In this document: piece by piece, positions 5,425 through 29,741 of the stretch | Position numbering within the stretch: the stretch's first letter is position 1 | How the letters are laid out: every line of letters begins with the position of its first letter | Assembly: GCA_963706795.1 (NCBI GenBank) | Contig: OY970170.1 | Location: forward strand, 1,235,897-1,267,896 | Direction of reading: 5' to 3' | From: Candidatus Saccharimonadota bacterium | Lineage (GTDB): Bacteria; Patescibacteriota; Gracilibacteria; BD1-5; UBA2023 | DNA length: 32,000 nucleotides | The notes under the pieces: model-generated | What the model saw: the letters and a program-made list of their open reading frames with translations, nothing else | The model's database searches: none | Told to the model about the DNA's origin: nothing | Program-made: the position numbers and the translations under genes

Positions 5425-6288
5425 CTATGCCTCGTCTATGGATGGTGCGAGCATCTTCGTAGTGACTTGATCATAAAATTTTTGGATGCATCTCACATCC
5501 GAAAATGCTCCAAACTCAGGCATTATAGACCTAATATTTGTCGCGAGCATCGCCTTAAGCATGCGTGCTTCAATGACATATTCTTGGCTAGATATCCCTT
5601 CGATTTTTTCGAGGATGAGATTGGTGTCGGGATCCTCTAAATTATGCTTCGTCAAAATACTCTTTTGATAGAGATGACATATCAAATGTAAGAGCGGAAG
5701 ATCTAGTGGCTCACTAAACTCATCTGGATGAGCCGGAAAATCAAAATTTTGGTCATTATCTGTAATGCGTCCAATAAATAATCACGCTACATGATCTGTC
5801 TTGCCCCATGCCACTTTAAAAGAATTGAGATCAAAAAGATGTATATTTTTTTCATGAAACATGGCTCGCTTACTGGTGATCTGTTCAGATTTAAAAATCT
5901 GAGCATTTACCTCGAGCGATGCAAGCGCTCTGAGCATGTATGCCTCTTTGTCTTGTTGAGCAATTTTTTGATTGGGGTGAACCGCAGTAAATTCGATAAA
6001 TTCGTCTACGAATAGCTCGTCAACATACAGCGTACCAATACCCACCTTGAGTAGAGAATTTCCTCGAATATTCGGCCCCTGATTGATAATCGCTATTTCC
6101 TTGCGATCCGTAAGTCTTTCAAAGAATCGAACAGCCAGGTCATCGTCTTCTTCAAAACGATCATAGAATATTTTTGTGCCAGGAAATTCGAGCACAGCAT
6201 GCACCTCTGATGCTACATCAGTAGAAGGCATAACAGGTGAATCCGTCTGAGTCCGACGAGCTGTCGGGAAAGTGAGAATATTATCCAT
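5425..6288 (-). CDS. Hypothetical protein (287 aa)
   Basis: Track ORFs 5782..6288 and 5425..5685 are in frame and joined through TGA 5782-5784. ATG at 6288, TAG at 5425-5427. No family recognised. Confidence 0.6.
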
Positions 6289-6312
6289 AACAAGGAGGTT
6301 TATGGTGCGATA

Positions 6313-7011
6313 TTATTTTGCGAGCCTAAGTGAACCGAGCGATGACATCGTTCCGATCTCGGCTCAGGTAGATTGTGTATCAAAGTGGATATATTCGTCT
6401 CCCCATGCCGTGAGCAAGCGGTCCATTTGAAAGTCGTCGTATTCATCGAGTGAAAGCCCTCGCAGCCTCTCTGTGAGCTGAACTGGATCTTTTGTAATCG
6501 ACAATGCCCAATAAAATTGACCATCATCTTCACCAAGTGGTTCATGAGTCCAATACAGGATTTCAGAAGCATTTTCACCATCAAATGACCGACCTAAAAG
6601 ATTGAGCAAATGATCTCTTTTTTCGATGCCCGTTCCAGGAATCGCATCAATCAGGATGATCCATGCTTCAGCTGAAACCAAATCCATACTGGGTGGTCGA
6701 TCAGCGACAACATATCCGCGTTTAAATACAAGATCCGTGCCATTTATAGCATCCATTTGTTCAAGAGAATGCGCGCTGATATCTGTGAGATCGATACGAT
6801 ATTGCCCGACAATAATCGCTTGGTTATCAACCTGAATATCAACTTTTCAATATACTTCAGCCCAATTTTGTAAAAGCTGCAATATTCGCTGAGACTGAGT
6901 CTCTGGCATTGCCAGAATATTTTCTGTTTGAGCTCATGCGGCAGGCAGATTCATGGGTATCTGCACTCATTCTGAAGTAGGACGTACCGTCTCAAAAGCA
7001 AGATTATTCAT
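6313..7011 (-). CDS. Hypothetical acidic protein (232 aa)
   Basis: Track ORF 6364..6756 extends upstream to ATG 7009-7011 (TGAs at 6847, 6934, 6967) and downstream through TGA 6364-6366 to TAA 6313-6315. No family recognised. Confidence 0.55.
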
Positions 7012-7109
7012 AACAAAAAATGATGAATTCTGATCACTATAGGAATACTAGCAAATAATCAAGAGAAGAGTTTGTCAAATCACCTACTTGCACCACGGAC
7101 AACTTTATA

Positions 7110-7136
7110 AAAATCCCCGACTATGTCGGGGATTTT
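7110..7136. terminator. Intrinsic terminator hairpin (A-tract/T-tract flanked, potentially bidirectional)
   Basis: aaaatccccgac (7110-7121), tat loop, gtcggggatttt (7125-7136): a perfect 12-bp stem. It starts 16 nt downstream of the TGA that closes ORF 7152..7562 on the minus strand. Confidence 0.75.
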
Positions 7137-7151
7137 GTGATGACGAATGGA

Positions 7152-7562
7152 TCAGAGAGAGAAAATTTTCTCAAGCCAGTGCGTCTCTTCCTTATCTTTC
7201 CCCTTGCAATAGGGGCCGTGGATTGTCTTGTAACAACCACCTGAATTTACCTTACGGTTCATGGTGGTGAGTATCCAATCTACGAAGACTATGCCAAGTT
7301 CGGTATCAACAGATTTGACGATCCCAATGGCACGAATACGTATATCAGAACTTCCTTGACCTAGACCCTTTTTGATCGCAATGCAATCATTTTTACGCAC
7401 TTGTGCAATGACTGAATCATACTCAGGATGTTCCCCAAGTTTCCAGCCATTTTGCCAGATACCTGCTTGAATAAAACGTTCGAATTGATCGTCTTTGCCC
7501 CACATTGCGCCAGCTAAAAAGTACTGACGACTTGGTTTGCTATTTGTTTTAGCTAATTCCAT
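7152..7562 (-). CDS. Hypothetical protein (136 aa) whose only plausible end is a TGA codon
   Basis: Clean ORF 'MELAKTNSKPSRQYFLAGAMWGKDDQFERFIQAGIWQNGW...' with no internal TGA. It ends at TGA 7152-7154, followed by the 7110-7136 terminator. Reading TGA as Gly would add about 135 aa antisense to gene 6313..7011 (next TAA at 6744-6746). Confidence 0.55.
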   Translation of the reverse strand: MELAKTNSKPSRQYFLAGAMWGKDDQFERFIQAGIWQNGWKLGEHPEYDSVIAQVRKNDCIAIKKGLGQGSSDIRIRAIGIVKSVDTELGIVFVDWILTTMNRKVNSGGCYKTIHGPYCKGKDKEETHWLEKIFSL

Positions 7563-7665
7563 TTTACTTCCTTAAGTAGACCCTCCGAGGAAACTCATCG
7601 GGTAAAATAATATCTATTGGTATTTCATCCCCACAAAGTTCATAAGGACCAAAAGAGTCTACGAA

Positions 7666-7701
7666 AAATCCCTCCAAAACCAAAGATTTCGAGAGGGATT
7701 T
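7666..7701 (-). terminator. Putative intrinsic terminator after the P-loop gene
   Basis: aaatccctc (7666-7674) pairs with gagggattt (7693-7701), with an 18-nt loop. On the minus strand it overlaps the TAA of 7700..8227 and is followed by TTTCG. Confidence 0.4.
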
Positions 7702-8227
7702 AGGAGAGATTTTTGAGTTTTATTGTGTGGCTAATAAGTTCAAATCCGTTCTCAACAGATGTGATTTCTAAAGTCTTTGATTGAAGGCTAGAAGTAGCTA
7801 TATTTTCCAGAATTCTTGGTAATTGTCGCTTCTTCCAAGTCAGTGTGCGTATCAAAAAACCAATATTGATCGAATTTGCTCCGTGGATATTTAGGTCCTG
7901 TTTATTGCGTTTTTGCTTGAAAAACAAACTCTTCATAGACCTCTTTAAGATGCGGAGAATATTGCCAAGTGGAGATGTATTAATAATCACTATCAAATCC
8001 ACTCGATCTTTCATAGATTTAATGATCGAGCAACTTGCTCATTCAATAATCCAGCTTGATTGCTGTATAGCTTCTTTTTGAAGTAATCAATAATTTGGAT
8101 TCTCAATCCAACCTTCTTGCCATTGGAGCGAATCAAGATGCACAACAGGAATGTTATATGTTTGACTCAGATCGTGTGCAAGCGTAGATTTCCCTGATCA
8201 GGCTGGGCCAGTAATGTATATGCGCAT
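7700..8227 (-). CDS. P-loop NTPase, adenylate-kinase / topology-modulation (FlaR)-like
   Basis: Track ORF 7700..8014 extends upstream through TGAs (8039, 8087, 8198) to ATG 8225-8227: 'MRIYITGPAG-S-GKSTLAHDLSQTYNIPVVHLDSLQW'. TGA 8198-8200 supplies a Walker A glycine (GPAGSGKST). TAA at 7700-7702. Confidence 0.75.
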
Positions 8228-8244: not shown

Positions 8245-9708
8245 TTAATCCCTACTTTCAGTATTTCAAAAGTAGATCTCGTTTGCCTGATTTACTAATC
8301 TCATTTCTTCTTCGGCTGAGTCTTTTATAACTTTTTCTGATTCACGTTTTTGCCTGTTTTGTCGATCCTGTTTTTCTTTGTCGGCAAGCTCTTTTGCTCG
8401 AGTTTCTGTAGCAGAAATATCTTTCAATCGAGCCCCAAGCAAGATAAATTCTTGGACCTTGTTAAATTCAGTATCGAATTTTACTAACTCTTCTTCAATT
8501 TCAGTGAAATTGCCTTTTTTGGCATGTAATTCTTTGATGTGAAGCAAGGCTCATTCGAGTGCGAAGAGCGTAGATGGCAAATGAAAGAGTATAAATCTCA
8601 TATCCCCCGTTTTTTTGGCGTAGGTGGTTGCATTTTCCGTATACTGAGATTTTATCTGAATTCCTCAGAGATTCCTTTCTCTGTCGGCAATTTGAGACGT
8701 CAGGCTCTTTAGCCAGTCTATTTCTTTTTTGAGCACGTCAGCATGTGCATCCATCTGAGCAAAAAGCACTTTTTCTGCAGTATGGAGAGCTTCAAGAGCA
8801 TCTATATCTCGAAGTCGATATATCGTTCGGAAGTCATAGCTAAGTTTGTGGATTTCACTCTGAAGCCCCGTAAGGTCGAATCGGTTTTCTTTTTTATAAA
8901 GTGTTCTGTGTTTGACACTTATCTTGCTGAGTTCTGATTTTTTTGAGTCAAATGTCGACTGGATGCGTATATTAAATACATCCATCATTTCATAGAATCG
9001 TTCGAATCCTGAAAGACGTATGTGGTGAGCTCGTATATTTGCAACAATGAAATCTAGATCATCCACATCAACTGGAGATTCTGTCACAAAGGCTTGTATT
9101 TGTCTGAATTGAAAGCCAATTCGCTGGAGCGAAGACTCAAGCGTTCGTACTTCTGACATGAGCCTATCGGCCTCGTAGAGTTTTTTCGTACGTTTTTCTT
9201 CGTCTTCCTGCCACTCAGTCGCCATCGTATTCAAGAAGTCAGTTACCTCAGCAATATCTTTCTGAAAAGTCGCTTCCCAGTGAGAAAGAGACAAAATTTT
9301 AGCTAAATCCTCTTCTGCATGACCATTAAGACGTGCCAAATACGACTCGATAAGTGGAAAAAGATATCACTGCGGATATCTTGCCCTCTCTGTTTCATAT
9401 CTCTTACCTAGGTCTTTTATCTGATTCTTGAGATCATTTTTTTGCTTGGAGCGAAGGAGTCTTCTTGAGCCTATAAGTCCACCCACAGCAATACCAAAAA
9501 CCGCTGTACCAACTGCGATATCTTTAAAGAGTTCACTTGTATCGTTCTCTTTGTTACTCTCTAAGTGCTCCTGGATTTTTTGTTTCGTCTCATCTTGTAC
9601 AAGAGACAGGTTATCCGGAAGGACTTCATTTGCTGAAGTTACATTCGATCCAAGGGCCATGGCCGAACCTACAAGCACGGACTTCCATCCCGATTGATTC
9701 CTATTCAT
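8245..9708 (-). CDS. Membrane-anchored coiled-coil protein (487 aa), function unknown
   Basis: Track ORFs 9367..9708, 8665..9339 and 8266..8547 share a frame and join through TGAs at 9367, 8665, 8551 and 8266. N-terminal signal/TM region (MNRNQSGWKSVLVGSAMALG; IAVGTAVFGIAVGGLIG), then a long charged, helical sequence. TAA at 8245-8247. Confidence 0.65.
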
Positions 9709-9781
9709 GAGGAGTTTTAAAATATCCCCTGTATATCGATTTTTTATAAAAAGTCACTCTTTTTGACAGGCATCACATATG

Positions 9782-9810
9782 TTGACAAATATAATTATAG
9801 TATATATTCA
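9782..9810 (+). promoter_or_regulatory. Candidate sigma70-type promoter for gene 9909
   Basis: TTGACA at 9782-9787 is followed by an AT-rich spacer and TATATT at 9803-9808 (short 15-nt spacer) within the 200-nt AT-rich divergent intergenic region. Confidence 0.3.
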
Positions 9811-9908
9811 ACCTTGTATTTTTCTGTATGGAACGCGAGTTGCATTACAAAAAAAGCGTTCGTTAAAATCTGTAAGTTCGAGGAGTTTTCATTCCTAGGG
9901 AGGAAATT

Positions 9909-10328
9909 ATGAAAAAATTATATACAGGCTTATTGTTCTTTGTGTTGCCATTCTTTGCGTTTGCAGAGACGACGGGTCATATAAGCGACCTCTCAAAGAT
10001 ATACGAAAACACAAGCATTACCTTGCTGAGCGCACTTGCAGTCAGTTTTGTGATCATCACTCTACTCATGCCTGCAATTGTTGGCGGTATCGTGGCAGCA
10101 ATAAGCACGTATCTTCTTCTAGTACCAACCATGGCCGGTGGAATCGTTGCCGTACTGGTTATACTTGTATTTTTTATGGGCTGGGGAATCGCCTGGTTGA
10201 TCCGAAACATGATCAAGCCAAGTAGCTATTCTGGCTCGGATTCTGATGGAAGTATTGACGCTTGCAGTGCTTGGGGATTCAACTCAGGTGACTCTTGGGG
10301 AAACGACTCCAGCGGAGGTATCGATTGA
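9909..10328 (+). CDS. Small multi-TM membrane protein with Gly/Ser/Asp-rich tail (139 aa), apparently ending on TGA
   Basis: Signal-like MKKLYTGLLFFVLPFFAFA, several TM stretches, tail 'GSDSDGSIDACSAWGFNSGDSWGNDSSGGID'. No internal TGA. The ORF closes at TGA 10326-10328, 26 nt before a strong terminator. No TAA/TAG occurs in any forward frame before the hairpin. Confidence 0.55.
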   Translation: MKKLYTGLLFFVLPFFAFAETTGHISDLSKIYENTSITLLSALAVSFVIITLLMPAIVGGIVAAISTYLLLVPTMAGGIVAVLVILVFFMGWGIAWLIRNMIKPSSYSGSDSDGSIDACSAWGFNSGDSWGNDSSGGID

Positions 10329-10354
10329 ATGAACTTACAGAAAGGAGAAATCAA

Positions 10355-10384
10355 AAACAGAAGGTGAAAACCTTCTGTTTTTTT
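10355..10384. terminator. Bidirectional intrinsic terminator
   Basis: aaacagaagg (10355-10364), tgaaaa loop, ccttctgttt (10371-10380), then tttt. It lies between convergent genes 9909..10328 (+) and 10400..10912 (-). Confidence 0.8.
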
Positions 10385-10399
10385 GTGATACGATATTGC

Positions 10400-10912
10400 C
10401 TATTCAGCTTTTTTTCACTGTGCTCGTGCGATAGCATCCATGGCCTGATTATGGCTATTTTGGAGAATGTTTTCGAGTTTTTGATGAGTTTGTTCTTCGC
10501 GCTCTAAAGCAAACTTTTCATACGCTGCATACATATGCGAAATAAAGGCATGTACCACAACACGAGCCTGATCAGGAGCGAGCTTTGCTCGACCAAGGGC
10601 ATCAGTATTATTCAAAATCGCGCCCATTACATGTGACATATGAATAGGGAGCGCCAAATTTTGATGCGTGACCATTGCTCGAATAAGACCATTCATATGC
10701 TCATTCTCAAAGAAACCAAGAACTGTCTCTCTGTCTAAAGCATCTTTTTTACTTCTTCCATTCCCAGGAAGCATTGGGTATCTTGCTCCCGCAATAAATG
10801 CCTTCTTTTCGGCTGCAAATACTGTGGCGATGTTTTCTTTGAGATTGTTTTCAATCTCGGCGAGAGCCATTGCTTCGTTACCATGAAGATCCGGAGTCTG
10901 TGATGCTGACAT
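10400..10912 (-). CDS. Hypothetical His-rich protein (170 aa), last gene of the Fur/NAS/COG0523 operon
   Basis: Track ORF 10415..10978 reads through TGA 10415-10417 to TAG 10400-10402. The likely start is ATG 10910-10912 (MSASQTPDLHG...). Several His clusters (THQNLALPIHMSHVMG, VVVHAFISHMY). Confidence 0.5.
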
Positions 10913-10987
10913 ATTATCAGGGTTATTGGACGATATCCTCAAGTTTAGCACAAGAGAGATATGGACGCAAAAAAACACTAATATACC

Positions 10988-12508
10988 CTACGCGAGATAG
11001 TTCTCCCACTTCGCAATTCGGCCATCAGTTTCAAAATATTCAAATTCTGCCCATTTGGACATTACTTCCTTATCCATGGAGAGTTTTACAATGGCTCCGT
11101 CAGACTGGAGTAATTCATCGATAGTTTTTGTGGCACATGAAGGATCGAAGAGATCAATCCCATGTTTCTCCAAAAGAATTTTTACAAGGAAATCGAGCCG
11201 CTTATGACAGATATATGTTGGGCTTTTTGAATGCTCTCTGAGCTCGGCTACGGTCTCAACTTTTTTTGGAGTTCTCGCATATGCACGACGCTTGTATTCG
11301 AGCCAGCTGTAGGGATCTGGATATTTCATGGATTCACCGAGCGCTTTTTGTTCCGCCTGGATACGAGCAATTTCGAGCCAAGAAGCATCAGAAGCCCCAT
11401 CCTGAAAGCGTGATTGAATCATTGATATTTTTGCGTCCATAGCCATATACGCGTGATACTGACTCACAAGCTTATCTACGCGCTCCTCGGATAATGCCAC
11501 AAATGCCTCAATAGTATCTGGAATCATAGGAGAAGAAATTGATTGGATTGTGTGTGTAATTGAATGGTCACTCACTTGCTCAAAAATGAGTATTTGCGAA
11601 GGCGTCATGGGGCTCACAGTTATAATATTGAGATATGGAGCCACGCTTGTGTGCTTGGAATAGACGAAACTTCCGTGAACAAAATCAAATTCGGTTTGCC
11701 CGATTACACCTTTTGCACGCATGACATTTGTTCCAAGAGACGCGATGGCCAGATCAAGATCCTGCCGAGAAAAATTCGCATGCAACTCAAAGCTTCTCGT
11801 GAATACTGGCGCCTTTTTTGTAGCTGATCTGGTATTCATATGTGAGGTCGGAGCAGATGCACTTCTCAAAAAACTCGGCTTTGATTCGGGCTTTTTAGGG
11901 AGATGATCGAGTAGTCACAAAAGGGATTCGTAATCCTGCTCATGTGGATGTGATTCGAAGGATTCTTGACTCGATCAATCGATCTTTCTGAGTTGTACGA
12001 TCGGAGCAGATGGAGCGAGTCGACCTATCCATTGCAGAACATTGTCCGAATTCCCCTCAGTCCACGTGAGTCCGACGATATCCGCAGTCCTCATCTGAGT
12101 ATCCATCACCACTCTCTCCGCCTCAGAACGAAGTGGAAAATGCTCGACATCCGAGAGCACAATCGTCGTCACACGAAACCCAGTTCGCTTCATAAGAGCA
12201 AGAATGGCAGGTCATTCGGCAATTCCACTCGGCTCAACAATCAGGAGTTCTGAGGAACCCTTCGCTTGATGCAGGGCATTGGAGAGAGATTCCATGTCTT
12301 CGCAGCAGATACACCCCTCGGTGAGCGCGGTCACGTCAGCATCACTCAAACGAGCCGCATCGATATTAATTGATCCAACGTCATTGACGATAATTTTGGT
12401 TTTCTGCTTAAATCGCGAAAGCATCCATCGGATTAGTGACGTTTTTCATGATCCAAGTGGCCCAAGGACCAATAGGGCTCGCGAAGTATCGGGACTGTGC
12501 ATTGTCAT
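10988..12508 (-). CDS. COG0523-family (CobW/ZigA/YeiR-like) metallochaperone GTPase with about 200-aa extra C-terminal region
   Basis: Track ORFs 12212..12424, 11975..12193 and 10988..11869 are in one frame, joined by TGAs at 12446, 12212, 11975 and 11915. 'LVLGPLGS-G-KTSLI' Walker A (TGA 12446-12448 is the Gly of GKT); 'TEGCICCEDMESL' (GCxCC); 'LLIVEPSGIAEG'; CobW_C-like 'VMRAKGVIGQTEFDFVHGSF'. ATG 12506-12508, TAG 10988-10990. Confidence 0.85.
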
Positions 12509-12513
12509 ATCCA

Positions 12514-13332
12514 CTACAGTGATCAAAGAATACAAGAATTCACAACACCAGACGGTGGATTACAATACATCACTTCTGCGTATCCATCCGGAAGCCACGA
12601 AGTTTGCATCTCCGGATAGAGAAATGTTCTGTAACCGAATGCTGTACGAAACAATACGGTCTGTCCTGACCTACTCGAATCCAAGATAGATTGAGCAATT
12701 ATTCGTTTTGTCACTGCATCACATCCCGCAAGTGCAGCAACAAAAATACAGTCGTACTCTCCATAGCCAGAGAATTTTTCGGCTGACCCATGGAGAATTC
12801 CAACATTCTCTGCGAGCCCTATTCGGCTGATGAGCAGACGAGAGAGCTCACAGGCATTTTCATTGCTATCAAGACAATCAACCCCTTCTATAAATGCATC
12901 CTGCATTAATATTGGAGAGAGTGGCAGTGGTCCTGATCCCACAAAAAGCGCCCTACGTGCAGAACCGAGCCCACGTTCTTTTCGGTACTGATGGATCAAT
13001 GATATTTCCCATGTACTGAGCAACCGATAATTTTGCATATACGGAAATATCTCAAGATCTTTGAGACTCAAAGGGTCTTTATTTTTAAGAAGCAAATTTG
13101 CCCAATGATGCTCGAGAAGGGATTCTCACTCTGAGCACAGAGACTGCATTTTGGAGCGCAATGAGCGAGTCGGGATATCCCAAAAAAGCTCAGAAATATC
13201 CCCGTCATGCCCCATAACCGTCTCTACCAAACGCGAGAATTCACCATTTACCGTCGGCGAAGGATGAAGCGAATCCTCCCGTGAAAGCCGATCATATATC
13301 GTCTGAATTACTTCAATACTACTATGCGTCAT
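12514..13332 (-). CDS. Nicotianamine synthase-like (NAS/CntL-type) SAM-dependent aminobutyryl transferase
   Basis: Track ORFs 13126..13332 and 12523..13095 are in frame, joined by TGA 13126-13128 ('LCSE-G-ESLLEHHW'). NAS hallmarks by recollection: 'SLHPSPTVNGEFSRLV', 'FPYMQNYRLL', 'ALFVGSGPLPLSPILM'. It reads through TGA 12523 to TAG 12514-12516. Confidence 0.8.
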
Positions 13333-13735
13333 GCCCCGCTTTTGTTACACAAGAAGGACAATTTCCCACATGCGTCTCACGATGGGATTCTAGGATATTT
13401 CCTGCACTATTTTTGAAGTGCTCATCACTAATACTCCCACATCCATGACAGTGAGTGAGTTCAAAATGCCTCGATGGTTCTCGACCATTTCGGATCTCTG
13501 CACAGAGTACAAATGACTCCACGCCATGCTCATAGAGAGCATGGATAAGTCCCGCATCCCGAAAATCAGAAATACCTCGATAGAGCGTCGCAAGATTTGC
13601 ACCTGTACGAGATATGTAAGCTTCTTTGAGCGAATCAAAGTCGCACGCATTCTGCTCAGATAAAATCTCAAGCAACGCCACTCGCGACTTCGTTGCACGA
13701 CATCAGACAGAATGAATAATTGAGGAATGGTCCAT
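13322..13735 (-). CDS. Fur-family metalloregulator (Zur-like)
   Basis: 'ATLYRGISDFRDAGLIH' (wHTH), 'HFELTHCHGCGSISDEH' (HxHxxCxxC-type site) and a second 'CPSC'. ATG 13733-13735 (one TGA at 13703), TAG 13322-13324. It overlaps the NAS start by 11 nt. Confidence 0.8.
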
Positions 13736-14819: not shown

Positions 14820-16949
14820 CTACGAAACTTCTTCTCATTCTGGTGGAGTATTTTTAGCATTCATGATCTTATGGATCCTATTCCCTACTATCGTTCCGAG
14901 GAGTTCTTTGTAGCGTTTTCTTTCGGGATTTACACGGGTCTTGCGACTTGGGAGAGCAGAATGAATAACAAGATCAAGTTTTTGCTCCTCGGTCATCGTC
15001 TTTTTGTAGTTCACCATATTGCGACTCGCGCGACAAGCAAAGGCGTCAATTCGGCCGTAAAAACCTGACTCTTCAGCTCGGATACGGAGATCATCCAGGG
15101 TTTGTCCACTATTCGTATTGTCATCGAAGATGAGTAGCCAGTTCTGATCTCGCATTTGATGCCTCGTATCATCATCAATAATAGACTTTTGCATGACCTC
15201 GGCGATGGGATAGTCAGCCAGCTTGAGGAATGAATTGGCATTTTTGACGTCATAGATCGAATAGACGATATTTCAGACATTCGCGAGCACCTGGCCACTA
15301 TTCACTGACTTCGAAAAAACGTATTTTGCATAGAGCCCAGTGAGCGCGCCACCATAGTTTACGCCCATGATATGCAGGACATCCTTTGTAGGCTTATAGC
15401 CCTTTTGGATAATCATATTAAGTGCATTTTGGGCAGTCTTGATCATCACGAGTGGATCGTTTTCTTCTCTATAGAGACGAATGATCTTTTTGAGTGCCTT
15501 CTCATGGACGATTGTATTTTGAGGCTTCGTCGTTTTTTGTTTCTTTTGAGCTCGCTTCTCGCCGTCAGCCACATAGCTGTCCATGAGCTTAAAATATGAC
15601 TCGAGGAGTTGTAAAATATCTACAAATTCAGCACGCATCATATCGGTTTTACCCGTGTTGATCTCAGGGAGTTTATTTGGGATTTCTCAAACAATCTTCA
15701 CATGTGCTATGTCGTTGTTTCAGAGCATTATATCCATCGAATACCCCACATGACTATCGAGCATACTCAATAAGGCATAATGTCAGTCTTCGTCTCATCG
15801 AAGAGTTTCCTGAAGCTTTTTAAACTCTGCAAATTCGTGCGGACTAGTACTCTTGATATGACGAACTTCATCGCGCTTAAACACGAGACTTCCCTCGTAG
15901 TCAGGATTAAGGAATTGCTCACTATAGAGAAGCTGAGCAGCATTCTGCATGAATGCCAGCATATTAATCTTCGCATCCAAAAGTCCGAGAAGAATCTTCT
16001 TCATCGACTTATGCGTGTTAATTTTTATATACTTGTTGAAGATCTTGTCTATATCAAGCGCAAAAGTCACCTTCGCATGCTGTAAAAGCAAACTTTGATT
16101 CGAGAGAAATTTGAGAATATGATGGAATAAATGCGCCGTCGGAGTCTTGGCAAAATCCTGGACCATATTACGAAGCTGCTCAAGACCTTGCAGTGTCTGG
16201 ATTCACTGCGTAGTAAAAAGATTGTCTAATTCTTGGTTTGAAGTTTGATTCTTTTTTTTGAGTTTCCGCTCCAAACGTCTCAGATCACCTGGAGCCAAAA
16301 GATTAAAAATATCCCGCGAGAAATCATCCAGATTATGCGTCAGCCCGTTCCAAAGCATCTCTTCGTAATAGGTGCTAAATAGTCGAATATTCTGATCGAT
16401 CGAATTATAGTGAGCCAGGAAATCATGCTTAAAACCATCCATATTTACATCGAGCACATCATGGTCATTGATCGACGAAAACCGCTCCTTGGTATCTACC
16501 AATACACTCGGAAACTGGAAATAGTATTTTTGGTTTCGAAATATGAGATTGCTGCCATGTTTATAGACAAAATCATTCTTGAGATTGAGCAAATACGCCT
16601 CATGAAGCCAATGAGATCACTCAATCGGGTTACCGTCCTTGTCTAGACTTACAAACAAACCTGTGAGCTCATTTATGTCCTCTTTGTTTAATTTGATAGC
16701 TCCATCTACATGGAAATATTCTTTAAGGAGTGAATTAATTTCATCACCTGCGAGAACATCCAATGAGCGCTGTTTTATATAATCAGTTATCCCTGTAAGC
16801 TTATTTTCAAAAGGAATACTGAGCTTTTTAATGCGCTCAGATTCACTCATTTCATCCTTGGAGAGCTCATCTGAGATTGCAAAGAGTACCTCAGGAGTGA
16901 GTTCTACACTTGGCTCGTCAGGAGATGAGACGATATGGAAATTTTTCAT
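14820..16949 (-). CDS. Large protein (709 aa) with C-terminal phosphoribosyltransferase-like domain; N-terminal about 450 aa of unknown family
   Basis: Track ORFs 16617..16949, 16203..16592, 15795..16166, 15273..15641 and 14835..15194 share one frame. The gaps contain only TGA (8 in total). PRT-type motifs 'HIMGVNYGGALTGLYAKYVF' and 'WLLIFDDNTNSGQTLDDL'. ATG 16949 (in-frame TAA upstream), TAG 14820-14822. Confidence 0.75.
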
Positions 16950-17133: not shown

Positions 17134-17604
17134 CTAGTGATCTCAAAGTTTCTTCCAAAACTCCACCGTCGTTTTCTGCATGCCAGCATCTAAATAAAAT
17201 CGCTGTGAAAGCTCATTTTCAAAATCTGTGTGGGTTGTGAGGTGATCACACCCTCTTGTTATTAATTCCTGTTCAAGAGCCTGAAAAAGCTTGCCTGCGA
17301 AGCCCTTACCTCGGAGATCAGATCTCACGAATACTTCATCCACATAACCGAGTTTGCAAAACCTATGGTTCTTGCGTTCATGAACCGATCACTGCACAAA
17401 TCAACCCACTTCATCGTTGTCAGTTATCGCCACAAATATAATCTCGTCATCAAGATCGGATTCCTTTAGTGGCAAATAAGGATTTACTCGCTCATGAAAA
17501 TCCTGATTTTCTTTAGAAAAAATCTGGGAGCGATAGAGATTGAGCTCATCCATGAGGAGCTGGATTCACTGGATGTCGAATTTGGTGGCTTTGCGGATGA
17601 GCAT
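17134..17604 (-). CDS. GNAT-family N-acetyltransferase
   Basis: 'MLIRKATKFDIQGIQLLMDEL...' and 'VDEVFVRSDLRGKGFAGKLFQALEQ' (acetyl-CoA motif A, R/Q-x-x-G-x-G/A). 4 in-frame TGAs. TAG 17134-17136. The start is 26 nt after the hsdR stop. Confidence 0.8.
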
Positions 17605-17630: not shown

Positions 17631-20600
17631 CTATTTTGAAAGCTCTTGAGCTAATAATTCGCTCTGTTCAATCACACGATCAGCCTCAATCTTTGCGAGG
17701 TCTGGTGGATACCCATAGCGCATGAGCACTTTTTTTACCGTGAGACGAAGTTGAGCGCGAACATCATCACGTTTGTTCCAGTCGACTGTAGCATTCTTTC
17801 GAATGATATCTACGATCATATGGATCAATTCCTTCATCTTATGATCCTCCAGAAATTCTGTCGATGTGTTCTGCGAAAGTATAGAATAAAATGCATATTC
17901 TTCGGGGGTGAGACCAATCTCCTTTGCTCGCATATCCTCAATCCTCATATCGCGTGCAATCTGTGAAAGTTCCTCGATAATCTGTGCTGTATCGAGTTGA
18001 TTGTTATGGTAACGCTTAATCACATTTCCAAGCATTTCAGAGAACTTTTTCCCTTGAGCAACATTCTTTTGTTTGCGAACCTTCACCTCCTCAGTGAGAA
18101 GTTTTTTAAGGAGTTCAAAAGCAAGATTTTTGTGCTCCATGTTTTTCACTTCTAATAGAAATTCCTCTGACAGAATCTCAAGTGAAGGAGCTTTGATTCC
18201 TGCTGCTTCAAAAATATCTACCACTCAATCCGAAGACAAAGCTTCTTCGACAATCTGTCGGATCGCCGTATTTACCTCTGCATCACTTTTTCAACCAGTA
18301 GGTGAGAATTTATTGATTCGTGATTTAATAGCCTGAAAGAAGGCAATATGATCCTTGATTTGTTCCGCCGCAACACTCGGTACAGCCATTACAAAGAGTT
18401 TTGAAAGCGCAGACACTTCAGCGAGGAATCGATTCTGTGTATCTTCACTTCGAAGGATGAAGTTTTGTGCAGCGAGCAACACATGAAGCTTCTTTCAGGT
18501 TTCAGCAGTGAAATACGACTGATAATCGAATCCGTGAAACATCTGAGAAACAATCTCGAATTTTGTTCGCATCCCAGCTATTACCTCCGCAATATCCAAT
18601 ACTGCTTGCCCCTGTCACCCATTGTCCGTATACGTCGACATCGCATTTCGCAGATCTTGTCCGATACCGATATAATCAACAATCAATCATCCTGGCTTAT
18701 CTTTGTAAACGCGGTTCACACGTGCAATTGCCTGCATAAGGTTTGCACCTTCCATTTTCTTGTCGATGTACATCGTATGGAGCGACGGTGCGTCAAATCC
18801 TGTCAGCCACATGGACTGTACGATCACGAGTTGCAGGGAATCATTCGGATCTTTGAGCCTAAGGGCTAATGCCTTGCGCTCATCCTTGGTAGTGTGATGT
18901 GGCTGGAAATCTTCAGGATCATCTGTTGAGCTCGTCATCACGATCTTCAAGAAACCCTTCGTAAGATCCTGATCATGCCATTCAGGTCTGAGTTTCACAA
19001 TCTCAGTATATAGGTTCACTGCGATCTGTCGTGTCATACACACGATCATCCCCTTTCCTTCGAAGATAGCCTGACGCGCTTCAAAGTGATCAACGATATC
19101 CTTCGCAATATCCCTCAATCTATCTGGATGCCCCACGATACTATCGATCTGTGCATTGCGTTTTTTTGCTTTCTCTTTCTGCTCAGGTGTTGCATCTTCG
19201 ATCTCATCGATCGCTATATCGATCTGAGCAACAGCCGCATCGTTCATCTTGATCTTCACAAGTCGACTCTCATAACTAATCGGCACAGTTGCGCCATCTT
19301 GAACCGCCTGTGCGATATCGTAGATATCCACATATCCACCAAATACTGCAGGTGTAGACTTATCTTCCTTCTCGATCGGAGTACCCGTGAATCCTATGAA
19401 AGAAGCCTGAGGAAGCGCATCTCTCATATACTTTGCATTCCCGTACTTGATCTCGCCATCAAGATCAACCTTTCCCGTGAAACCATACTGACTTCGATGC
19501 GCCTCATCTGCAACCACTACAACGTTTGAACGATCCGTAAGAACCTCGAAAGAATTCTGCCCATCTTCAGGATAGAATTTCTGAATTGTCGTGAAAATAA
19601 TCCCACCACCTGATACTTTGAGAAGCTCCTTCAAATGCGCACGATTATTCGCCTGGACTGGTTTTTGTCGCAGGAGGGAGACACAGTTCCCAAATGTTTG
19701 AAATAGCTGTTCATCGAGATCATTACGATCCGTGAGTATCACGATCGTAGGATTCTTCATCGCAGGTTCTACAACGAGTCTTCCAGCATAGAAGACCATG
19801 GAGAGTGACTTCCCAGATCATTGAGTATGCCACACAACCCCAATCTTCTTGTCACCATCTTCTGCAGTGGCACGCAAGGTTTCCTTCACTGCCTTCTCCA
19901 TCGCGTAATACTGATGATACGCAGCAACTTTTTTGATCTTGATTACAGAGAGCACTCCCGTTTCTTTATTCTTTACTTCTTCAGCTTCAAATACTGTATT
20001 GTATCTGATCAATTCGAGCAGAGTTTTCTTCTCGAACATTCGCTCCGCCAAGATCTGAAGCTCAGGCAATACCCCATTTTCCTTCTTCTCAGGTGATTTC
20101 CACACGAGATAACGTGAGAACGGTGCAGAGACACTCGACACTCGTGCATCGAGCCCGTCAGAGATCACGCAAAGTGCATTGTAATAGAACACAGAAGGAA
20201 CCGCCTTCTTGTAGTTCTGAATCTGTGTGAAAGCTCGCTCCAATGTAGCATCCTCATCCATTGTATTCTTGAGCTCAACCACGACAAGTGGGAGTCAATT
20301 CACAAACAACACAACATCCAGTCGCTTTTCATTGTTATTTTCCTTTACTACGAACTGATTCACCACACAGAAGTGGTTATTCTCTGGATTCACAAAATCC
20401 ACCAAGTTCACACTCACCCCCTTCGACTGCCCATCCGTGAAATACTCCACCACTACCCCATCCGTTAACATCTGATGAAATACCTCGTTGTTCATCATTA
20501 GATCATCCGAATCAAAGCGACGAATCTTTGAAAGTGCTTCGATTCGAGCAGATTCTGGGATGTGAGGATTGAGACGGTCGATAGATGTAGTTAGTACCGT

Positions 20601-20744
20601 ATCTAAAATAACGCCGTCAAAACTCGAACGCATAGGGGTTGAGCTGTATGGAGAGATATCTGGACCATAGAAATACTCGTAGCCCTGAGATTTGAGGAGA
20701 TCTACGAGGTTTTGTTCGATGGAAGATTCGGTAAGGTGGGGCAT
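17631..20744 (-). CDS. hsdR: Type I restriction enzyme, R subunit (1037 aa)
   Basis: Five track ORFs (20295..20744, 19818..20282, 18687..19799, 18291..18482, 17631..18224) share one frame. Joins: '[17 protein letters not shown]' (TGA 20295) and '[18 protein letters not shown]' (TGA 19818, helicase motif I). Also '[11 protein letters not shown]' (DEAH) and a C-terminal '[21 protein letters not shown]' region. 7 in-frame TGAs. TAG 17631-17633. Confidence 0.95.
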
Positions 20745-20748
20745 AGAC

Positions 20749-21300
20749 TTATATATGAAGTTCTTGAGGTAAGAATCTATTTATTTCATTATCTGACCAA
20801 GTAAATTCTTCATCTCTATTCTGTTTTCATAACAAAGATAACTGAGCCTCAGTGTAATCAGTATATGTTGTTTGTGAGGATAGTCAGACAATAATTTGAT
20901 ACTGTTCCTGATATAAATCTCTTCTTCAAATCGTTTCATCTTCGCTCAAACCACCTATAATATCAACTATAAAGTTTTTATATTTATCTCTCAAGTTTAG
21001 AAATTGCAGTGCAATTTTTTTAAACTCCTGTGCTCTTTGTTCTATAGAAAATTCTTTCTGGAGGAATAAGAAAATTATCTCAGAAACCGTTAATGCAACA
21101 GATACACCTCCAAAAATATTACTGTCTGGAAATTTAATCTGTAAAATAAGGAATACTAGAATCAAGAAAACATCAATGATGTTTACCCACTTAATCAATC
21201 ATTGAACTTTTTCTAGTCTATCACACGCTTTTTCATAAACCTTGTGATTAAAGACGCATTGAGCAAATTGCTGTCTTACCACTGAAAGATTTCTATTCAT
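20749..21300 (-). CDS. SLATT-like two-transmembrane effector protein (183 aa)
   Basis: ATG 21298-21300. N-terminal helix, two adjacent TM helices (LIKWVNIIDVFLILVFLILQI; IFGGVSVALTVSEIIFLFL), then a helical tail '...YTDYTEAQLSLLGKQNRDEEFTWSDNEINRFLP'. 4 in-frame TGAs. TAA 20749-20751, 4 nt before the hsdR ATG. The assignment rests on architecture plus the SMODS neighbour. Confidence 0.55.
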
Positions 21301-21311
21301 ATTTTAGAAGA

Positions 21312-22190
21312 TTATCATGTAAATTTTGATCAAAATATTTCCCTCCATTTTTGATTAGCAGAATATTCCTTTGCCTCCGATTCATACTGCATAGCCTCTA
21401 TCGCTAAGTTATATGCCAATTTTGCCTTGTACTCAAACTTTCATCCCCTCCATACGTACTGACCACTTCAAGGTGCAAGCCAGTAAGATTTATCCTCATC
21501 CTGTTCTTTAAGGAATTTAAAGAAATCCCTTACCATCCAATCATAATACAAATAAGATTTATCCTTTTGCGCCCAATTCTTCATAAAATGATAGCATAAT
21601 GTATCAATCAAAAGCCCTCACATTGGTACATTCCAATAATCTTTCCATACCCTAGTAATTCTGCATAGTCTTTTTAAATTAAAATTCCAGTCTTCATTCT
21701 TCTCCCTAATTTCCTTAATCTCAGGTTTTGGATTTGTCTTCTTCCAAGAACCTCAATCGTTTGAATCAGGAAAAGTATAACTATCGTCAGTTTTAATAAA
21801 GGCAGGTACTATTTCAAAACAGATTCAATCATTCCAGTTGATTCAAATAACTTGTCCATCCCCTTTTATATGTGTTGTAGGATATGTTTTCTGTAATGAT
21901 GATCTAATTGCTTGCAACAATGCAGACTGTCAGTTTCCAGTATAATTGTTATACGTTTCATACAGTGAATCTGGAAGTTGAAAAATTACATCAATGTCAC
22001 TTACATGTATGTCTGTATCTCTACCATAAGATCATACGTATAGACTATGGCTATATTCTGATTCTGTGGACCAAAAATCTTTATTTAATCTCTTTGTGAT
22101 AGATCTATAGCGTACTGAAATCGTATCTATATTATCAATATCGATACGAATATTATCGCAGAAATTTTCAAATTTAGTTGTAATAGACAT
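21312..22190 (-). CDS. SMODS / CD-NTase-like nucleotidyltransferase (292 aa)
   Basis: This is the only frame free of TAA/TAG across 21315..22193; I enumerated every tta/cta. 10 in-frame TGAs, so the track shows no ORF here. Pol-beta NTase core 'YVGSYGRDTDIHVSDIDVIFQLP', 'GICFEIVPAF', 'PDSNDGGSWKKTNPKPEIKEI', 'RLCRITRVWK'. ATG 22188-22190, TAA 21312-21314. Confidence 0.75.
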
Positions 22191-22203
22191 AGATTAACAA
22201 GAA

Positions 22204-23436
22204 CTAAATTAAAGATGGTAAAATTTCTCCGCTCATCAACCTTGGCAATAGCTCATCGCGAGTTCTCGAGAGCAATGCTACTTGAGCTAAGTTATTATAG
22301 ATTTTTCGAAAAATTGGCTTAACTTTCTCATCAAATCCCCTTACTCTCTCAATATTTGGAACAAGCACCTCAAGTTCTTTTATCATGGTCGAATTAATCG
22401 CTGTGACTATCGATGAAGTACTTCATAGTGAGTTGAAATCCAGTTTCTGAAGATAGCAATATATAAATTCGGTACTCAATGCAGAGTTGCCCTTGATTTT
22501 CAGGTGAGCAATTGCTTCATTTGAGAGCATCTCTTCGGTGGTAATCGTTAGTTTACCGACAGTCATTTTGAAACTCAATATCGTTGTATTGATAGGAATT
22601 ACTGAGATATTGAATTTCTTAATTGCCTCATCTATCAGATATTCTGAAGTTTCAAAAATATATGTTTTACTATTTCCGATATCCTTTATAGAAATCCACT
22701 TTTTCCCTGTTGGAGATTTTGAAAACCACTCCGGTTGAATACGAGGAGGAGTTCTTCAGATTGTAATATCAAACTCCGTCCCTAATTTTCCTACTCTCCA
22801 ACCCTCCGGCAACTCATCATCTACGCCATACTTCCCAAATAACTCCTGAAAAATTGTCTGCGCAGTTTTCTCAAGTGTCTCATTTTGCTCTCGAAGAAGT
22901 TCGATCTTATCATCGAAACTTGAAAGTATTTGAGCGATTGCTTGTTGTTCAGGGAGAGAAGGAAGAAGAATAGGATATTCAGTAATTTGTCTCTGGCTTA
23001 TATGCGGGATAGATGTTCCAGTATGAACCTTTGCTACATAGGATTCAAAATTCTTATTTAGAATGAGATGTGCTATGAAATGCTGATCTGAGATTCATGG
23101 TTTCCTTCTTAAACATGCTACTCGCTGAGCCAATATTAGTGGCAGTTCTTTTTCTTGAACCATAGACCTATTTTTTCCAACCTTTGATCCATCCATTCAA
23201 ATTACTATGTCATCTTTTTGTAAGAAACACTTTTCCAATCCATCCGTAGAATGATTCCAATACTTCACAATATCCCATCTAAGAAATCATTCCGAGACAT
23301 TTTCTCATCTTACGACTCTCAAATTTCAATTCGAATCATATAAATTTCACTTGAATGATTCTCACGTAAAAATATCCACAACCTTCCCCAAAGTCGTCTC
23401 CATCCACCCTTCAGGAATCATTTTTTCATTTCTCAT
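22204..23436 (-). CDS. hsdS: Type I restriction enzyme, S (specificity) subunit (410 aa)
   Basis: The frame is open from 23496 to TAG 22204, with 9 in-frame TGAs. 'IPEGWMETTLGKVVDIFTG', 'LAQRVACLRRK', 'HTGTSIPHISQRQI', central 'LPEQQAIAQILSSFDDKIELLREQNETLEKTAQTIFQELF', second TRD 'LPEGWRVGKLG...', C-terminal 'RTRDELLPRLMSGEI'. Confidence 0.9.
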
Positions 23437-23437
23437 A

Positions 23438-23908
23438 CTACTTTTGAGGATTACTCATTTGATTAAGTACGCTATCCACCGCCTTTCATGGTAAGTTTAT
23501 ATCTCCTGTGTTAGTTCATGGAGTGTTTACTTTCTCAGCAATGTTCTCATAATCTGGCGTAACTTTATAATTTCCTCGATTACTCCTATAAAGCTTCCAA
23601 TTCTGTGCCCATTCAATCGCAGTATCTCGGAAACTTTTGTCTATCTTACCGTAATTTACAAGTGTCTCTGAGCCTCAAAATCAGATAGTCATAAATGTTA
23701 CGAGATAGGCCACAGTAATCACCCCGACTTTGTTCTTAAACCATTCAACTTTTGTAGTCAGAAGATATGTCAGAAAAACGAGCAAACAAGCGATTCCGAT
23801 TGCTATAAGCCAGAAGATGATCGTGAATACCGCATAAATAATCACCGCGAGGATTACAATTCCTATCACTCATTGTTCTACGAATCTTTCTTTTCATTTT
23901 CGACCCAT
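23438..23908 (-). CDS. Small membrane protein (156 aa; 2 N-terminal TM helices plus soluble tail), unknown function
   Basis: Track ORF 23681..23869 extends to ATG 23906-23908 and through TGAs (23681, 23675, 23516, 23486) to TAG 23438-23440, 1 nt before the hsdS ATG. Confidence 0.55.
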
Positions 23909-23952
23909 ACTACTTTTGGTTATCAGACAAAGGTTTATGCACTTCAAATAAT

Positions 23953-25089: not shown

Positions 25090-25175
25090 AGAAGTAAATT
25101 ATATATTTCTATAATTTAGTTTATCAGTTAAAAGTAAAATTACAATATCCATATTTTACTTTTGAACGTTATCCA

Positions 25176-26690: not shown

Positions 26691-26719
26691 GAGGAATGAG
26701 TCAGGAATTTTCTTGAAAT

Positions 26720-26748
26720 TTTACCCAATACTGATGCATTGGGTAAAT
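26720..26748. repeat. 10-bp inverted repeat upstream of hsdM (terminator of the preceding gene or an operator)
   Basis: tttacccaat (26720-26729) / attgggtaaa (26739-26748), 9-nt loop. It lies 30 nt upstream of the hsdM ATG and 58 nt downstream of the stop at 26806. The T-tract is weak. Confidence 0.4.
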
Positions 26749-26805
26749 AACTCGTAAAGTATAGTGTTTTAGAGGAAAAGACAATAAGGATAGCCGTGCT
26801 GAATT

Positions 26806-28763: not shown

Positions 28764-28847
28764 AAATGTTTTTTAACGCTAGAAAAACCTCCCATCCACA
28801 CCAACAAAGTGTTTCAAGGAGGTTTCCTTATTTTGAGATTCTTCTAA

Positions 28848-29717: not shown

Positions 29718-29741
29718 ATTGGGCTTTATTTCGGACTATTT

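What the first reader, a model, noticed from the sequence alone, without database searches (positions are those of the whole stretch)
9909..10384. Second TGA-terminated ORF followed by a terminator
This is the same anomaly as at 7152. The 139-aa membrane protein has roughly 20 Gly residues, and none is encoded by TGA. It ends at TGA 10326-10328, and the strong hairpin at 10355-10384 follows. I checked all three forward frames and none contains TAA/TAG before the hairpin. Read-through would run antisense across the convergent gene 10400..10912 for more than 180 codons. Two independent cases within 3 kb, both lacking internal TGA, make a simple coincidence less likely. They point to foreign standard-code genes or to position-dependent TGA decoding.
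Basis: partly seen in the sequence, partly recalled or inferred. Interest (0 to 1): 0.65.

Follow-up and report, generated by a model that had tools for sequence, protein, structure and literature searches.

The report
Stop-less foreign gene in UGA-glycine bacterium
In a bacterium that reads TGA as glycine, this small membrane-protein gene still ends with TGA and a transcription terminator, as a gene written in the standard code would; it is most likely an imported gene with no usable stop codon, and how its translation ends is unknown.

Summary
The window comes from a genome that reads TGA as glycine (code 25). ORF 9909..10328 is a real gene. It is an in-frame, internally deleted relative of YgcG/TPM-type membrane proteins, and it keeps the signal peptide, the membrane segment and the Gly/Ser/Asp tail. 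Homology ends exactly at TGA 10326-10328. A bidirectional terminator follows at 10353-10384. The next in-frame TAA/TAG lies 224 codons downstream, antisense to the neighbouring gene.

Its only informative relative (L008) ends with TGA at the same place and carries a near-identical hairpin. The ORF's codon usage is the most atypical of 25 genes in the window.

The pattern recurs. TGA-free genes that end in TGA plus a hairpin occur in at least three other code-25 lineages, next to genes full of in-frame TGA. They are under purifying selection (dN/dS 0.08-0.26). In one locus they are clearly foreign in composition.

Best reading: this is an imported, standard-code-style gene whose TGA is a legacy stop. 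The host most likely reads it as glycine, the ribosome runs to the terminator-defined mRNA end, and rescue factors release it. That last step is inferred.

A true position-dependent stop at UGA is not excluded (about 0.15). prfB, arfB and ssrA could not be checked.

The parts
9772..9801 (+). promoter-like site (ATCACA, 18 nt, TATAGT) upstream of the ORF; TTGACA at 9782-9787 is also present
   Evidence: consensus scan; sequence read. Consensus match only; function not shown.
9898..9903 (+). Shine-Dalgarno-like GGGAGG, 5 nt before the ATG
   Evidence: sequence
9909..10325 (+). coding sequence, 139 codons: signal peptide (9909-9965, MKKLYTGLLFFVLPFFAFA), deletion junction (about 9996-10004), membrane segment (10005-10217), Gly/Ser/Asp-rich tail (10218-10325)
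   Evidence: HMMER hit to P0016, E = 4e-9 across the library. BLASTP gives two collinear segments, 1-29 to 1-34 and 33-103 to 180-250. tblastn shows both segments in one frame, 9909-9995 and 10005-10325, matching P0016 residues 1-34 and 180-283 of 291. No TPM domain is present, whereas P0016 has PF04536.
10326..10328 (+). terminal TGA: a stop in the standard code, glycine in this genome's code; homology to relatives ends here
10329..10352 (+). spacer between the TGA and the terminator; contains a purine-rich AAAGGAGAAA; partly conserved with L008
10353..10384 (.). bidirectional Rho-independent terminator (A5, 8-bp stem, GAAA loop, T7) shared with the convergent gene; a second in-frame TGA lies at 10365-10367 inside it
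   Evidence: near-identical hairpin in L008 with one compensatory pair
10329..11000 (+). read-through frame under code 25: 224 codons, 10 TGA, antisense to 10400..10912; not coding
   Evidence: TGA density is about 4.5%, against about 1.3% in real genes.
10400..10912 (-). convergent neighbour gene, 170 aa, ends TAG 22 nt from the same hairpin; an orphan; has a TGA 5 codons before its stop
7152..7562 (-). sister case: 136-aa gene, 0 TGA among 14 Gly codons, ends with TGA 7152-7154 exactly at the family's conserved C-terminus (..FSL)
7110..7138 (-). terminator hairpin of the sister case (AAAATCCCCGAC ATAG TCGGGGATTTTT), 19 nt after its TGA

Best explanation
ORF 9909..10328 is a real protein-coding gene of foreign, standard-code type living in a genome that reads UGA as glycine. 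It is an in-frame, internally deleted derivative of a YgcG/TPM-family membrane protein. About 145 codons of TPM domain are lost. The signal peptide, the membrane segment and the Gly/Ser/Asp tail are kept. It came with its own TGA stop and its own Rho-independent terminator. In the host's code the gene therefore has no stop codon.

The most likely course of events is this. The ribosome inserts Gly at 10326-10328 and continues for about 19 codons (GMNLQKGEIKNRRGKPSVF). It reaches the 3' end of the transcript made by the terminator at 10353-10384. There it is released by ribosome rescue, either tmRNA-SmpB or an ArfB-type hydrolase. In that case the terminator, not a codon, sets the end of the protein.

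Shown: the gene is real; the natural C-terminus coincides with the TGA; the genome is code 25; the terminator is present; the composition looks foreign; and the same architecture recurs in other code-25 genomes under purifying selection. Inferred: Gly insertion at this particular TGA, transcript termination at the hairpin, and release by rescue factors.
For: 1. Code 25.
2. Real gene with its natural end at the TGA.
3. L008, the only informative homologue, ends with TGA at the same place. Its hairpin is near-identical (ACgGAAGGTGAAAgCCTTCcGTTTTTTTGTG against ACaGAAGGTGAAAaCCTTCtGTTTTTTTGTG), although third codon positions are saturated at 28% identity. L008's two ORFs hold 42 GGN codons and no internal TGA.
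4. The ORF has the most atypical synonymous codon usage of 25 window genes (z = -3.4) and the second-highest GC3.
5. The class recurs:
- The 136-aa family ends TGA plus hairpin in the window and in code-25 loci L001-L005 and L011.
- A DapD-like gene and a 751-aa gene do the same in L003/L004/L005/L011.
- These genes have 0 TGA among 104 Gly codons, while neighbours on the same contigs have 20 TGA against 84 GGN.
- dN/dS is 0.08-0.26.
6. Import is demonstrable in L006. Two TGA-free genes of 33-37% GC sit among native genes of 18-27% GC that use TGA for most Gly. One of the two ends TGA plus hairpin.
7. The 136-aa family occurs on plasmids of standard-code bacteria. It also occurs, with TAA and the same hairpin, in the TGA-free contigs L014 and L015.
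8. After the TGA the sequence carries indels and no protein-level conservation.
9. prfB is reported absent from all BD1-5 genomes (PMC6851277). In that case nothing known would read UGA as a stop.
Against: Non-stop products are normally tagged by tmRNA and degraded. That fits poorly with the purifying selection seen on the TGA-terminated genes of relatives.

If the TGA were only a neutral Gly codon in a useless tail it should drift. Instead it is unchanged in every orthologue examined, or replaced by TAA (the 751-aa gene, L011 against L003/L005), while the adjacent spacers diverge by 20-50% and carry indels. Rough within-clade probability under neutrality is about 0.02.

For the window ORF itself there is no direct evidence of expression or of selection. 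It has lost its TPM domain and has no close relatives, so it may be an inert remnant.

The genetic code of L008's organism cannot be determined from 1.2 kb.

The rescue factors, prfB and tRNA-Gly(UCA) of the source genome were not seen.
Confidence: 0.55

Rival explanations
1. UGA has two meanings in these bacteria: glycine inside genes, and a true termination signal at gene ends that lie 15-36 nt upstream of a terminator hairpin. This would be context- or position-dependent decoding. A minority class of genes would still be written in the standard code.
For: In every hard-stop-less gene checked, TGA sits exactly where homology ends: window 9909 and 7152, L001, L003-5, L011, L006 and L008. The terminal TGA is kept across dS of 0.7 to more than 1, while the spacers diverge. 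The only change seen is TGA to or from TAA. These genes are under purifying selection (dN/dS 0.08-0.26). They contain no internal TGA: 0 of 104 Gly codons against 19% in neighbours, p about 3e-10. In the window, TGA but not GGN is enriched in the last 7 codons of TAA/TAG-terminated genes: 7 observed against 1.9 expected, p = 0.004.
Against: No factor that reads UGA as a stop is known in this group, and prfB is reported absent (PMC6851277, PMC8629427). Internal TGAs are frequent (about 1.3% of codons) and sit at essential glycines, so decoding by tRNA must be efficient. Terminal and internal TGAs show no distinguishing sequence context, although the sample is small. Every feature is also explained by import from standard-code donors plus slow amelioration; TGA/GGN turnover between L003 and L011 is low. 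No literature report was found.
Confidence: 0.15
2. The ORF is an inert remnant. It would be a horizontally acquired gene fragment (TPM domain deleted) that is not usefully translated in this host. Its TGA end matters to nobody, and the open frame persists only because the acquisition is recent.
For: There is an internal deletion of the family's defining domain. Its synonymous codon usage is the furthest from the rest of the window of all 25 genes tested. No close homologue exists among 5.8 billion proteins. No selection test is possible for this ORF, because synonymous sites against L008 are saturated.
Against: The deletion is cleanly in frame and keeps the signal peptide, the membrane segment and the tail. 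Promoter-like, SD and terminator signals are intact. There are 139 codons without any of the three stops. A free-standing protein made of only the membrane segment and tail exists elsewhere (P0017). The terminator is conserved far beyond synonymous saturation. Analogous TGA-terminated genes in relatives are clearly under selection.
Confidence: 0.2
3. The gene is resident, not foreign. Its TAA stop mutated to TGA under rising G+C pressure, and this was tolerated because a terminator (or, in other genes, a nearby TAA/TAG) limits the extension.
For: Family members end in TAA in 25-28% GC code-25 genomes and in TGA in 42-55% GC ones. There is a TGA/TAA difference between close relatives. TGA is enriched near the C-terminus in the window but not in the low-GC loci.
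Against: It does not explain the atypical codon usage, the lack of internal TGA in the whole class, or the shared TGA plus hairpin with the distant L008. The high-GC homologues L014 and L015 end in TAA.
Confidence: 0.07
4. Sequencing or assembly error at 10326-10328, or a chance ORF in an intergenic region.
For: No reads were available to check. The ORF is short.
Against: The same codon at the same position is present in an independent assembly (L008). Homology in two collinear segments is database-wide significant. A second independent case lies 3 kb away, and more occur in other assemblies.
Confidence: 0.03

Closest known systems
Code-11-compatible phages predicted to infect Gracilibacteria/Absconditabacteria (Liu et al. 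2023, mBio, PMC10746230)
   Same: These are genes associated with UGA=Gly hosts that avoid in-frame TGA and may still end in TGA, so they can be read in both codes. That is consistent with movement between standard-code and code-25 cells.
   Different: In those phages a TGA stop is followed by another stop codon close by. Here the next TAA/TAG is 224 codons away and only a transcription terminator follows. These genes are chromosomal, and no relative was found in viral or phage collections.
Non-stop mRNAs and ribosome rescue (tmRNA-SmpB, ArfB; review PMC8012679; own knowledge)
   Same: Under code 25 the transcript would end at the terminator with no in-frame stop, which is the defining substrate of rescue systems.
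   Different: Rescue is normally quality control of damaged mRNA, and tmRNA marks the product for degradation. Here the stop-less state is encoded in the genome, recurs, and in relatives is conserved under purifying selection. The rescue genes of this genome were not seen.
Position-dependent stop codons in eukaryotes (Condylostoma magnum, karyorelict ciliates, Blastocrithidia; own knowledge)
   Same: The same codon appears as a sense codon inside genes and as the last codon of genes, close to the mRNA 3' end.
   Different: Those systems keep a release factor that recognises the codon, and use poly(A)-binding protein or special tRNAs. In these bacteria RF2 is reported lost, and no bacterial case is known. 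There is no direct evidence here that termination happens at the UGA.
YgcG / TPM-domain membrane proteins (Pfam PF04536), often paired with LemA
   Same: Signal peptide, C-terminal membrane segment and Gly/Ser-rich tail are homologous to P0016. P0016 has a LemA fragment upstream.
   Different: The TPM domain itself is missing through a clean in-frame deletion of about 145 codons. No LemA gene is adjacent in the window.

Membership tests
Genetic code 25 genome (UGA = Gly; JAEDAM01: BD1-5 / Absconditabacterales) | In-frame TGA in conserved genes, aligned to glycine | tested here: met
   Walker-A glycines are encoded by TGA. Two HsdR TGAs align to invariant Gly of EcoR124I HsdR. Coding capacity is 9.7k aa with TGA as a stop and 28k aa without.
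Genetic code 25 genome (UGA = Gly; JAEDAM01: BD1-5 / Absconditabacterales) | Loss of prfB (RF2) and presence of tRNA-Gly(UCA) | not testable with these tools
   Only 32 kb of a 1.27-Mb contig is available. The window holds one tRNA, tRNA-Lys(CTT).
YgcG/TPM family (PF04536) | TPM (phosphatase-like) domain | tested here: not met
   Pfam finds no TPM domain in the ORF. tblastn shows that P0016 residues 35-179 have no counterpart.
YgcG/TPM family (PF04536) | N-terminal signal peptide plus C-terminal membrane segment and Gly-rich tail, homologous to family members | tested here: met
   phmmer E = 4e-9. BLASTP gives two collinear segments, 42-47% identity.
Rho-independent (intrinsic) terminator | G+C-containing hairpin directly followed by a U-run | tested here: met
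   8-bp stem, GAAA loop, T7; A5 on the other side makes it bidirectional. Energy is -18.6 kcal/mol, z = -3.4. Termination activity itself is not testable here.
Dual-code-compatible genes with backup stops (as in code-11-compatible Gracilibacteria phages) | No in-frame TGA | tested here: met
   0 TGA among 15 Gly codons.
Dual-code-compatible genes with backup stops (as in code-11-compatible Gracilibacteria phages) | A TGA stop followed closely by TAA/TAG | tested here: not met
   The next in-frame TAA/TAG is 224 codons downstream, and none occurs in any frame before the hairpin.
Selenocysteine insertion (UGA + SECIS) | SECIS hairpin immediately 3' of the UGA, with coding sequence continuing after it | tested here: not met
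   No Rfam family other than tRNA reaches threshold in the window. The hairpin starts 29 nt after the UGA and carries a T7 run. The downstream frame is non-coding and antisense to another gene.
Non-stop mRNA / ribosome-rescue substrate | No in-frame stop between the start codon and the transcript 3' end | tested here: inconclusive
   This holds if UGA is read as Gly and the transcript ends at 10378-10385. Neither the 3' end nor the decoding of this UGA can be observed with these tools.
Context-dependent stop codon (sense inside genes, stop at gene ends) | Peptide release at the terminal codon despite sense decoding elsewhere | not testable with these tools
   There is only indirect evidence: conservation of the terminal TGA and a TGA/TAA swap, and TGA enrichment near C-termini.

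The most novel reading that the evidence does not exclude
In some UGA=Gly bacteria, functional chromosomal genes have no UAA/UAG at all and end with UGA followed 15-36 nt later by a terminator hairpin. Two readings would be new. Either UGA keeps a position-dependent stop function in a bacterium without RF2, which would be the first bacterial case of dual sense/stop decoding. Or termination by ribosome rescue at a terminator-defined 3' end is used as a regular, heritable way of ending proteins.
Probability: 0.2. Interest if true: 0.9.

Novelty: new variant of a known kind. Interest (0 to 1): 0.55.

Why it matters
Stop-codon reassignment is usually treated as complete, and as a barrier to gene exchange. 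These loci show standard-code-style genes being kept, under purifying selection, inside UGA=Gly genomes without any usable stop codon. That leaves three possibilities. The code barrier to gene transfer may be leakier than assumed. Ribosome rescue may serve as a routine terminator. Or UGA may retain a stop meaning at gene ends. There is also a practical consequence: gene callers run in code 25 or code 4 will fuse such genes to long antisense tails (here 363 aa instead of 139).

Tried and rejected
- Chance ORF: rejected because of homology in two collinear segments.
- Sequencing error: unlikely, because L008 carries the same TGA. Reads could not be checked.
- SECIS or another RNA element: no Rfam hit, and the geometry is wrong.
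- Backup stop in another frame, or a frameshift route to a stop: none before the hairpin. The +1 frame stays open to 10507.
- Phage origin: no relative in viral contigs or phage genomes.
- Orthologous locus in relatives through the neighbouring gene 10400..10912: it is an orphan. The ORF itself is not on record in the contig index. The source genome is absent from genome contigs. The metagenome scan gave one short contig.
- "The 136-aa family is specific to code-25 bacteria": rejected after tblastn found it on plasmids of Enterobacter, Shewanella and E. coli, in Neisseria gonorrhoeae records of about 2.17 Mb listed in that collection, and as the N-terminal part of AAA ATPases.
- Sequence context of terminal versus internal TGA (-1 and +4 bases): no clear difference; the sample is small.
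- "Selection against internal TGA since import": not supported, because TGA/GGN turnover between L003 and L011 is low anyway.
- Cross-locus blastp in all frames was too noisy until it was restricted to the best non-overlapping matches.

Full report
**The genome.** The window is from a bacterium that reads TGA as a sense codon.
- ORFs of at least 100 aa sum to 9.7k aa under the standard code and to 28k aa if TGA is not a stop. Removing TAG or TAA instead has much less effect.
- In-frame TGAs sit at Walker-A glycines of a CobW-like GTPase, a P-loop kinase-like protein and HsdR.
- Two HsdR TGAs align to invariant glycines of EcoR124I HsdR.
- TGA makes up about 19% of glycine codons.
- The source contig is 1,267,896 bp.
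- This is genetic code 25, known from BD1-5/Gracilibacteria and Absconditabacteria. RF2 is reported absent from that group (PMC6851277, PMC8629427).

**The observation.** ORF 9909..10328 (+) has a GGGAGG 5 nt before its ATG, 139 sense codons, and TGA at 10326-10328.
- A hairpin follows: CAGAAGGT-GAAA-ACCTTCTG, flanked by A5 and T7 (10353-10384). Its energy is -18.6 kcal/mol, z = -3.4.
- The hairpin also serves the convergent gene 10400..10912, which ends in TAG.
- No TAA/TAG occurs in any forward frame before the hairpin.
- The next in-frame TAA/TAG is 224 codons on. That stretch is antisense to the neighbour and carries 10 further TGAs, a density typical of non-coding frames.
- The ORF has 15 glycine codons, not about 20, and none is TGA. 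On its own this is weak evidence (p about 0.04-0.15).

**Is it a gene?** Yes.
- An exhaustive HMMER search found, besides the ORF itself, two hits: P0016 (291 aa, E = 4e-9) and P0017 (105 aa, E = 2e-4).
- P0016 is a TPM-domain (YgcG-like) protein with a LemA fragment upstream.
- The window ORF matches it in two collinear, in-frame pieces. The signal peptide (residues 1-29) matches P0016 residues 1-34. The membrane segment and Gly/Ser tail (33-139) match residues 180-283 of 291. Only three codons lie between the two pieces.
- So the ORF is a clean in-frame deletion derivative that has lost the TPM domain. Its homology runs right up to the TGA.

**The stop and terminator are inherited features.**
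- P0016's gene (L008, 56% GC) also ends in TGA at the same position, followed by a near-identical hairpin with one compensatory base pair.
- Coding nucleotide identity between the two genes is 48%, and third positions are at 28%, which means saturation. The stretch from TGA to the T-run is about 75% identical.
- L008's two ORFs contain 42 GGN codons and no internal TGA.
- The window ORF has the most atypical synonymous codon usage of 25 window genes (z = -3.4; the others range from -2.4 to +2.0) and a high GC3.

**The sister case and the wider pattern.**
- ORF 7152..7562 (-) ends with TGA exactly at the conserved C-terminus (..FSL/FSI/FCL) of a 14-member family, and a hairpin follows.
- Its homologues in a 51-55% GC clade (L001-L005, L011) also end in TGA plus a conserved hairpin. 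In that clade TGA aligns to Gly in 33 of 47 informative positions, and CreD, a dienelactone hydrolase and MetRS carry in-frame TGA. No TAA/TAG follows for 50-340 codons.
- dN/dS in this family is 0.10-0.26. The spacer after the TGA carries a 2-nt indel, so it is not coding.
- On the same contigs two further genes are built the same way: a DapD-like gene (396 aa) and a 751-aa gene.
- Together the three genes have 0 TGA among 104 glycine codons. Their neighbours have 20 TGA against 84 GGN and end in TAA.
- dN/dS is 0.08 and 0.14 at dS of about 0.75.
- In L011 the 751-aa gene has TAA where L003 and L005 have TGA.

**Where such genes come from.**
- In L006 (24.5% GC) native genes use TGA for most glycines, for example 25 TGA against 2 GGN.
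- Two convergent genes there are different. One is the 136-aa family member (TAA). The other is a 152-codon gene that ends in TGA 36 nt before the shared hairpin. Both have no internal TGA, 14-15 GGN codons, and 33-37% GC against 18-27% around them. That is imported DNA.
- The 136-aa family occurs on plasmids of Enterobacter, Shewanella and E. coli, and as the N-terminus of AAA ATPases.
- It also occurs, with TAA and the same hairpin, in the TGA-free 56-61% GC contigs L014 and L015.
- The nearest precedent in the literature is the code-11-compatible phages of these bacteria. They avoid in-frame TGA and back up TGA stops with nearby stops (PMC10746230).
- I found no paper on chromosomal genes that end only in TGA.

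**How it most likely works.**
- With no RF2, the simplest reading is that the TGA is a legacy stop which the host reads as glycine.
- Translation would then continue through the hairpin to the transcript end, adding about 19 residues, and release would depend on ribosome rescue.
- This explains why all such genes are followed closely by terminators.
- It does not easily explain two things. The genes stay under purifying selection even though tmRNA tagging would destroy the products. And the terminal TGA never drifts to a sense codon while the spacers do.

**A window-wide signal.** TGA, but not GGN, is enriched in the last seven codons of TAA/TAG-terminated genes (7 against 1.9 expected, p = 0.004). 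The low-GC loci show no such enrichment. These points keep a position-dependent stop function alive as a minority reading. For the window ORF itself, an inert remnant cannot be excluded.

**Limits.**
- The rest of the source genome (prfB, arfB, ssrA, tRNA-Gly(UCA)) could not be inspected.
- No close relative of this organism is in the collections.
- The genetic code of L008's organism is unknown.
- The gene maps of the high-GC loci rest on cross-species conservation.

Noticed in passing
window-wide; e.g. 10400..10912, 12514..13332, 14820..16949, 17134..17604, 21312..22190, 8245..9708: TGA is enriched in the last 7 codons of genes that end in TAA/TAG (7 observed, 1.9 expected, p = 0.004). GGN glycine codons are not (6 against 7.5). 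One gene ends ...TGA TAA. This looks like legacy TGA stops with a nearby backup stop. Three low-GC code-25 loci show no such enrichment.
   Followed up: partly
window 17631..28924: Defence island next to tRNA-Lys(CTT) at 28848..28924. It holds type I R-M genes (HsdR 17631..20744, HsdS 22204..23436, HsdM 25176..26690), SMODS 21312..22190 with SLATT_4 20749..21300, Fic 23953..25089 and DUF6119. Several genes have 30-37% GC and encode 35-60% of their Gly with TGA, so they probably came from low-GC code-25 donors.
   Followed up: partly
window 26806..27441 and 27402..28763 (-): One DUF6119 gene is split into two ORFs that overlap by 40 nt (Pfam model positions 52-362 and 387-523). This is a frameshift, a pseudogene or an assembly error.
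   Followed up: no
window 25176..26690 (-) and 28998..29735 (-): HsdM (504 aa, 35 GGN) and a DNA polymerase III delta'-like ORF (245 codons) have no in-frame TGA but end in TAG/TAA. TGA-free genes with proper stops therefore also exist in this genome.
   Followed up: no
window 6313..7011 (-): A gene missed by simple ORF picking, because the read-through of the 7152 ORF overlaps it. It has a TGA 17 codons before its TAA, and the code-11 ORF 6364..6756 ends at that TGA. This may be another legacy stop.
   Followed up: no
window 10353..10384 vs L008 1160..1190; L001 6425..6442, L003 6426..6443, L011 3805..3822, and the hairpins just after the genes in L014 (ends 955) and L015 (ends 2792): Terminator hairpins are conserved in sequence even though synonymous sites of the adjacent genes are saturated. 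CCCGGACTTCGGTCCGGG is identical in seven loci, whether the gene ends in TGA or TAA.
   Followed up: partly
L003 3090..4280 and 8394..10649 (-); L004; L005; L011 2015..3205 and 5771..8026 (-): A DapD-like gene and a 751-aa gene in a 51-55% GC code-25 clade have no internal TGA and end in TGA plus a hairpin. The 751-aa gene has TAA at that codon in L011.
   Followed up: yes
L006 4998..5938: A pair of convergent, compositionally foreign, TGA-free genes sharing one hairpin, inside a 24.5% GC genome that uses TGA for most glycines. One of them ends in TGA.
   Followed up: yes
window 10365..10367: A second in-frame TGA lies across the stem/loop boundary of the terminator hairpin. It is not in frame in L008.
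   Followed up: no
window 10988..13735 (-): Likely metal-homeostasis cluster: a CobW-like GTPase, a nicotianamine-synthase-like protein (PF03059, E = 1.6e-42) and a Fur-family regulator. A nicotianamine synthase is unusual in a genome of about 1.27 Mb.
   Followed up: no
window 7152..7562 (-): The 136-aa family has homologues on small plasmids of standard-code bacteria and forms the N-terminal part of proteins annotated as AAA family ATPases (Rhizobium, Proteus, Paracoccus plasmids). This suggests a domain linked to mobile elements or defence.
   Followed up: partly
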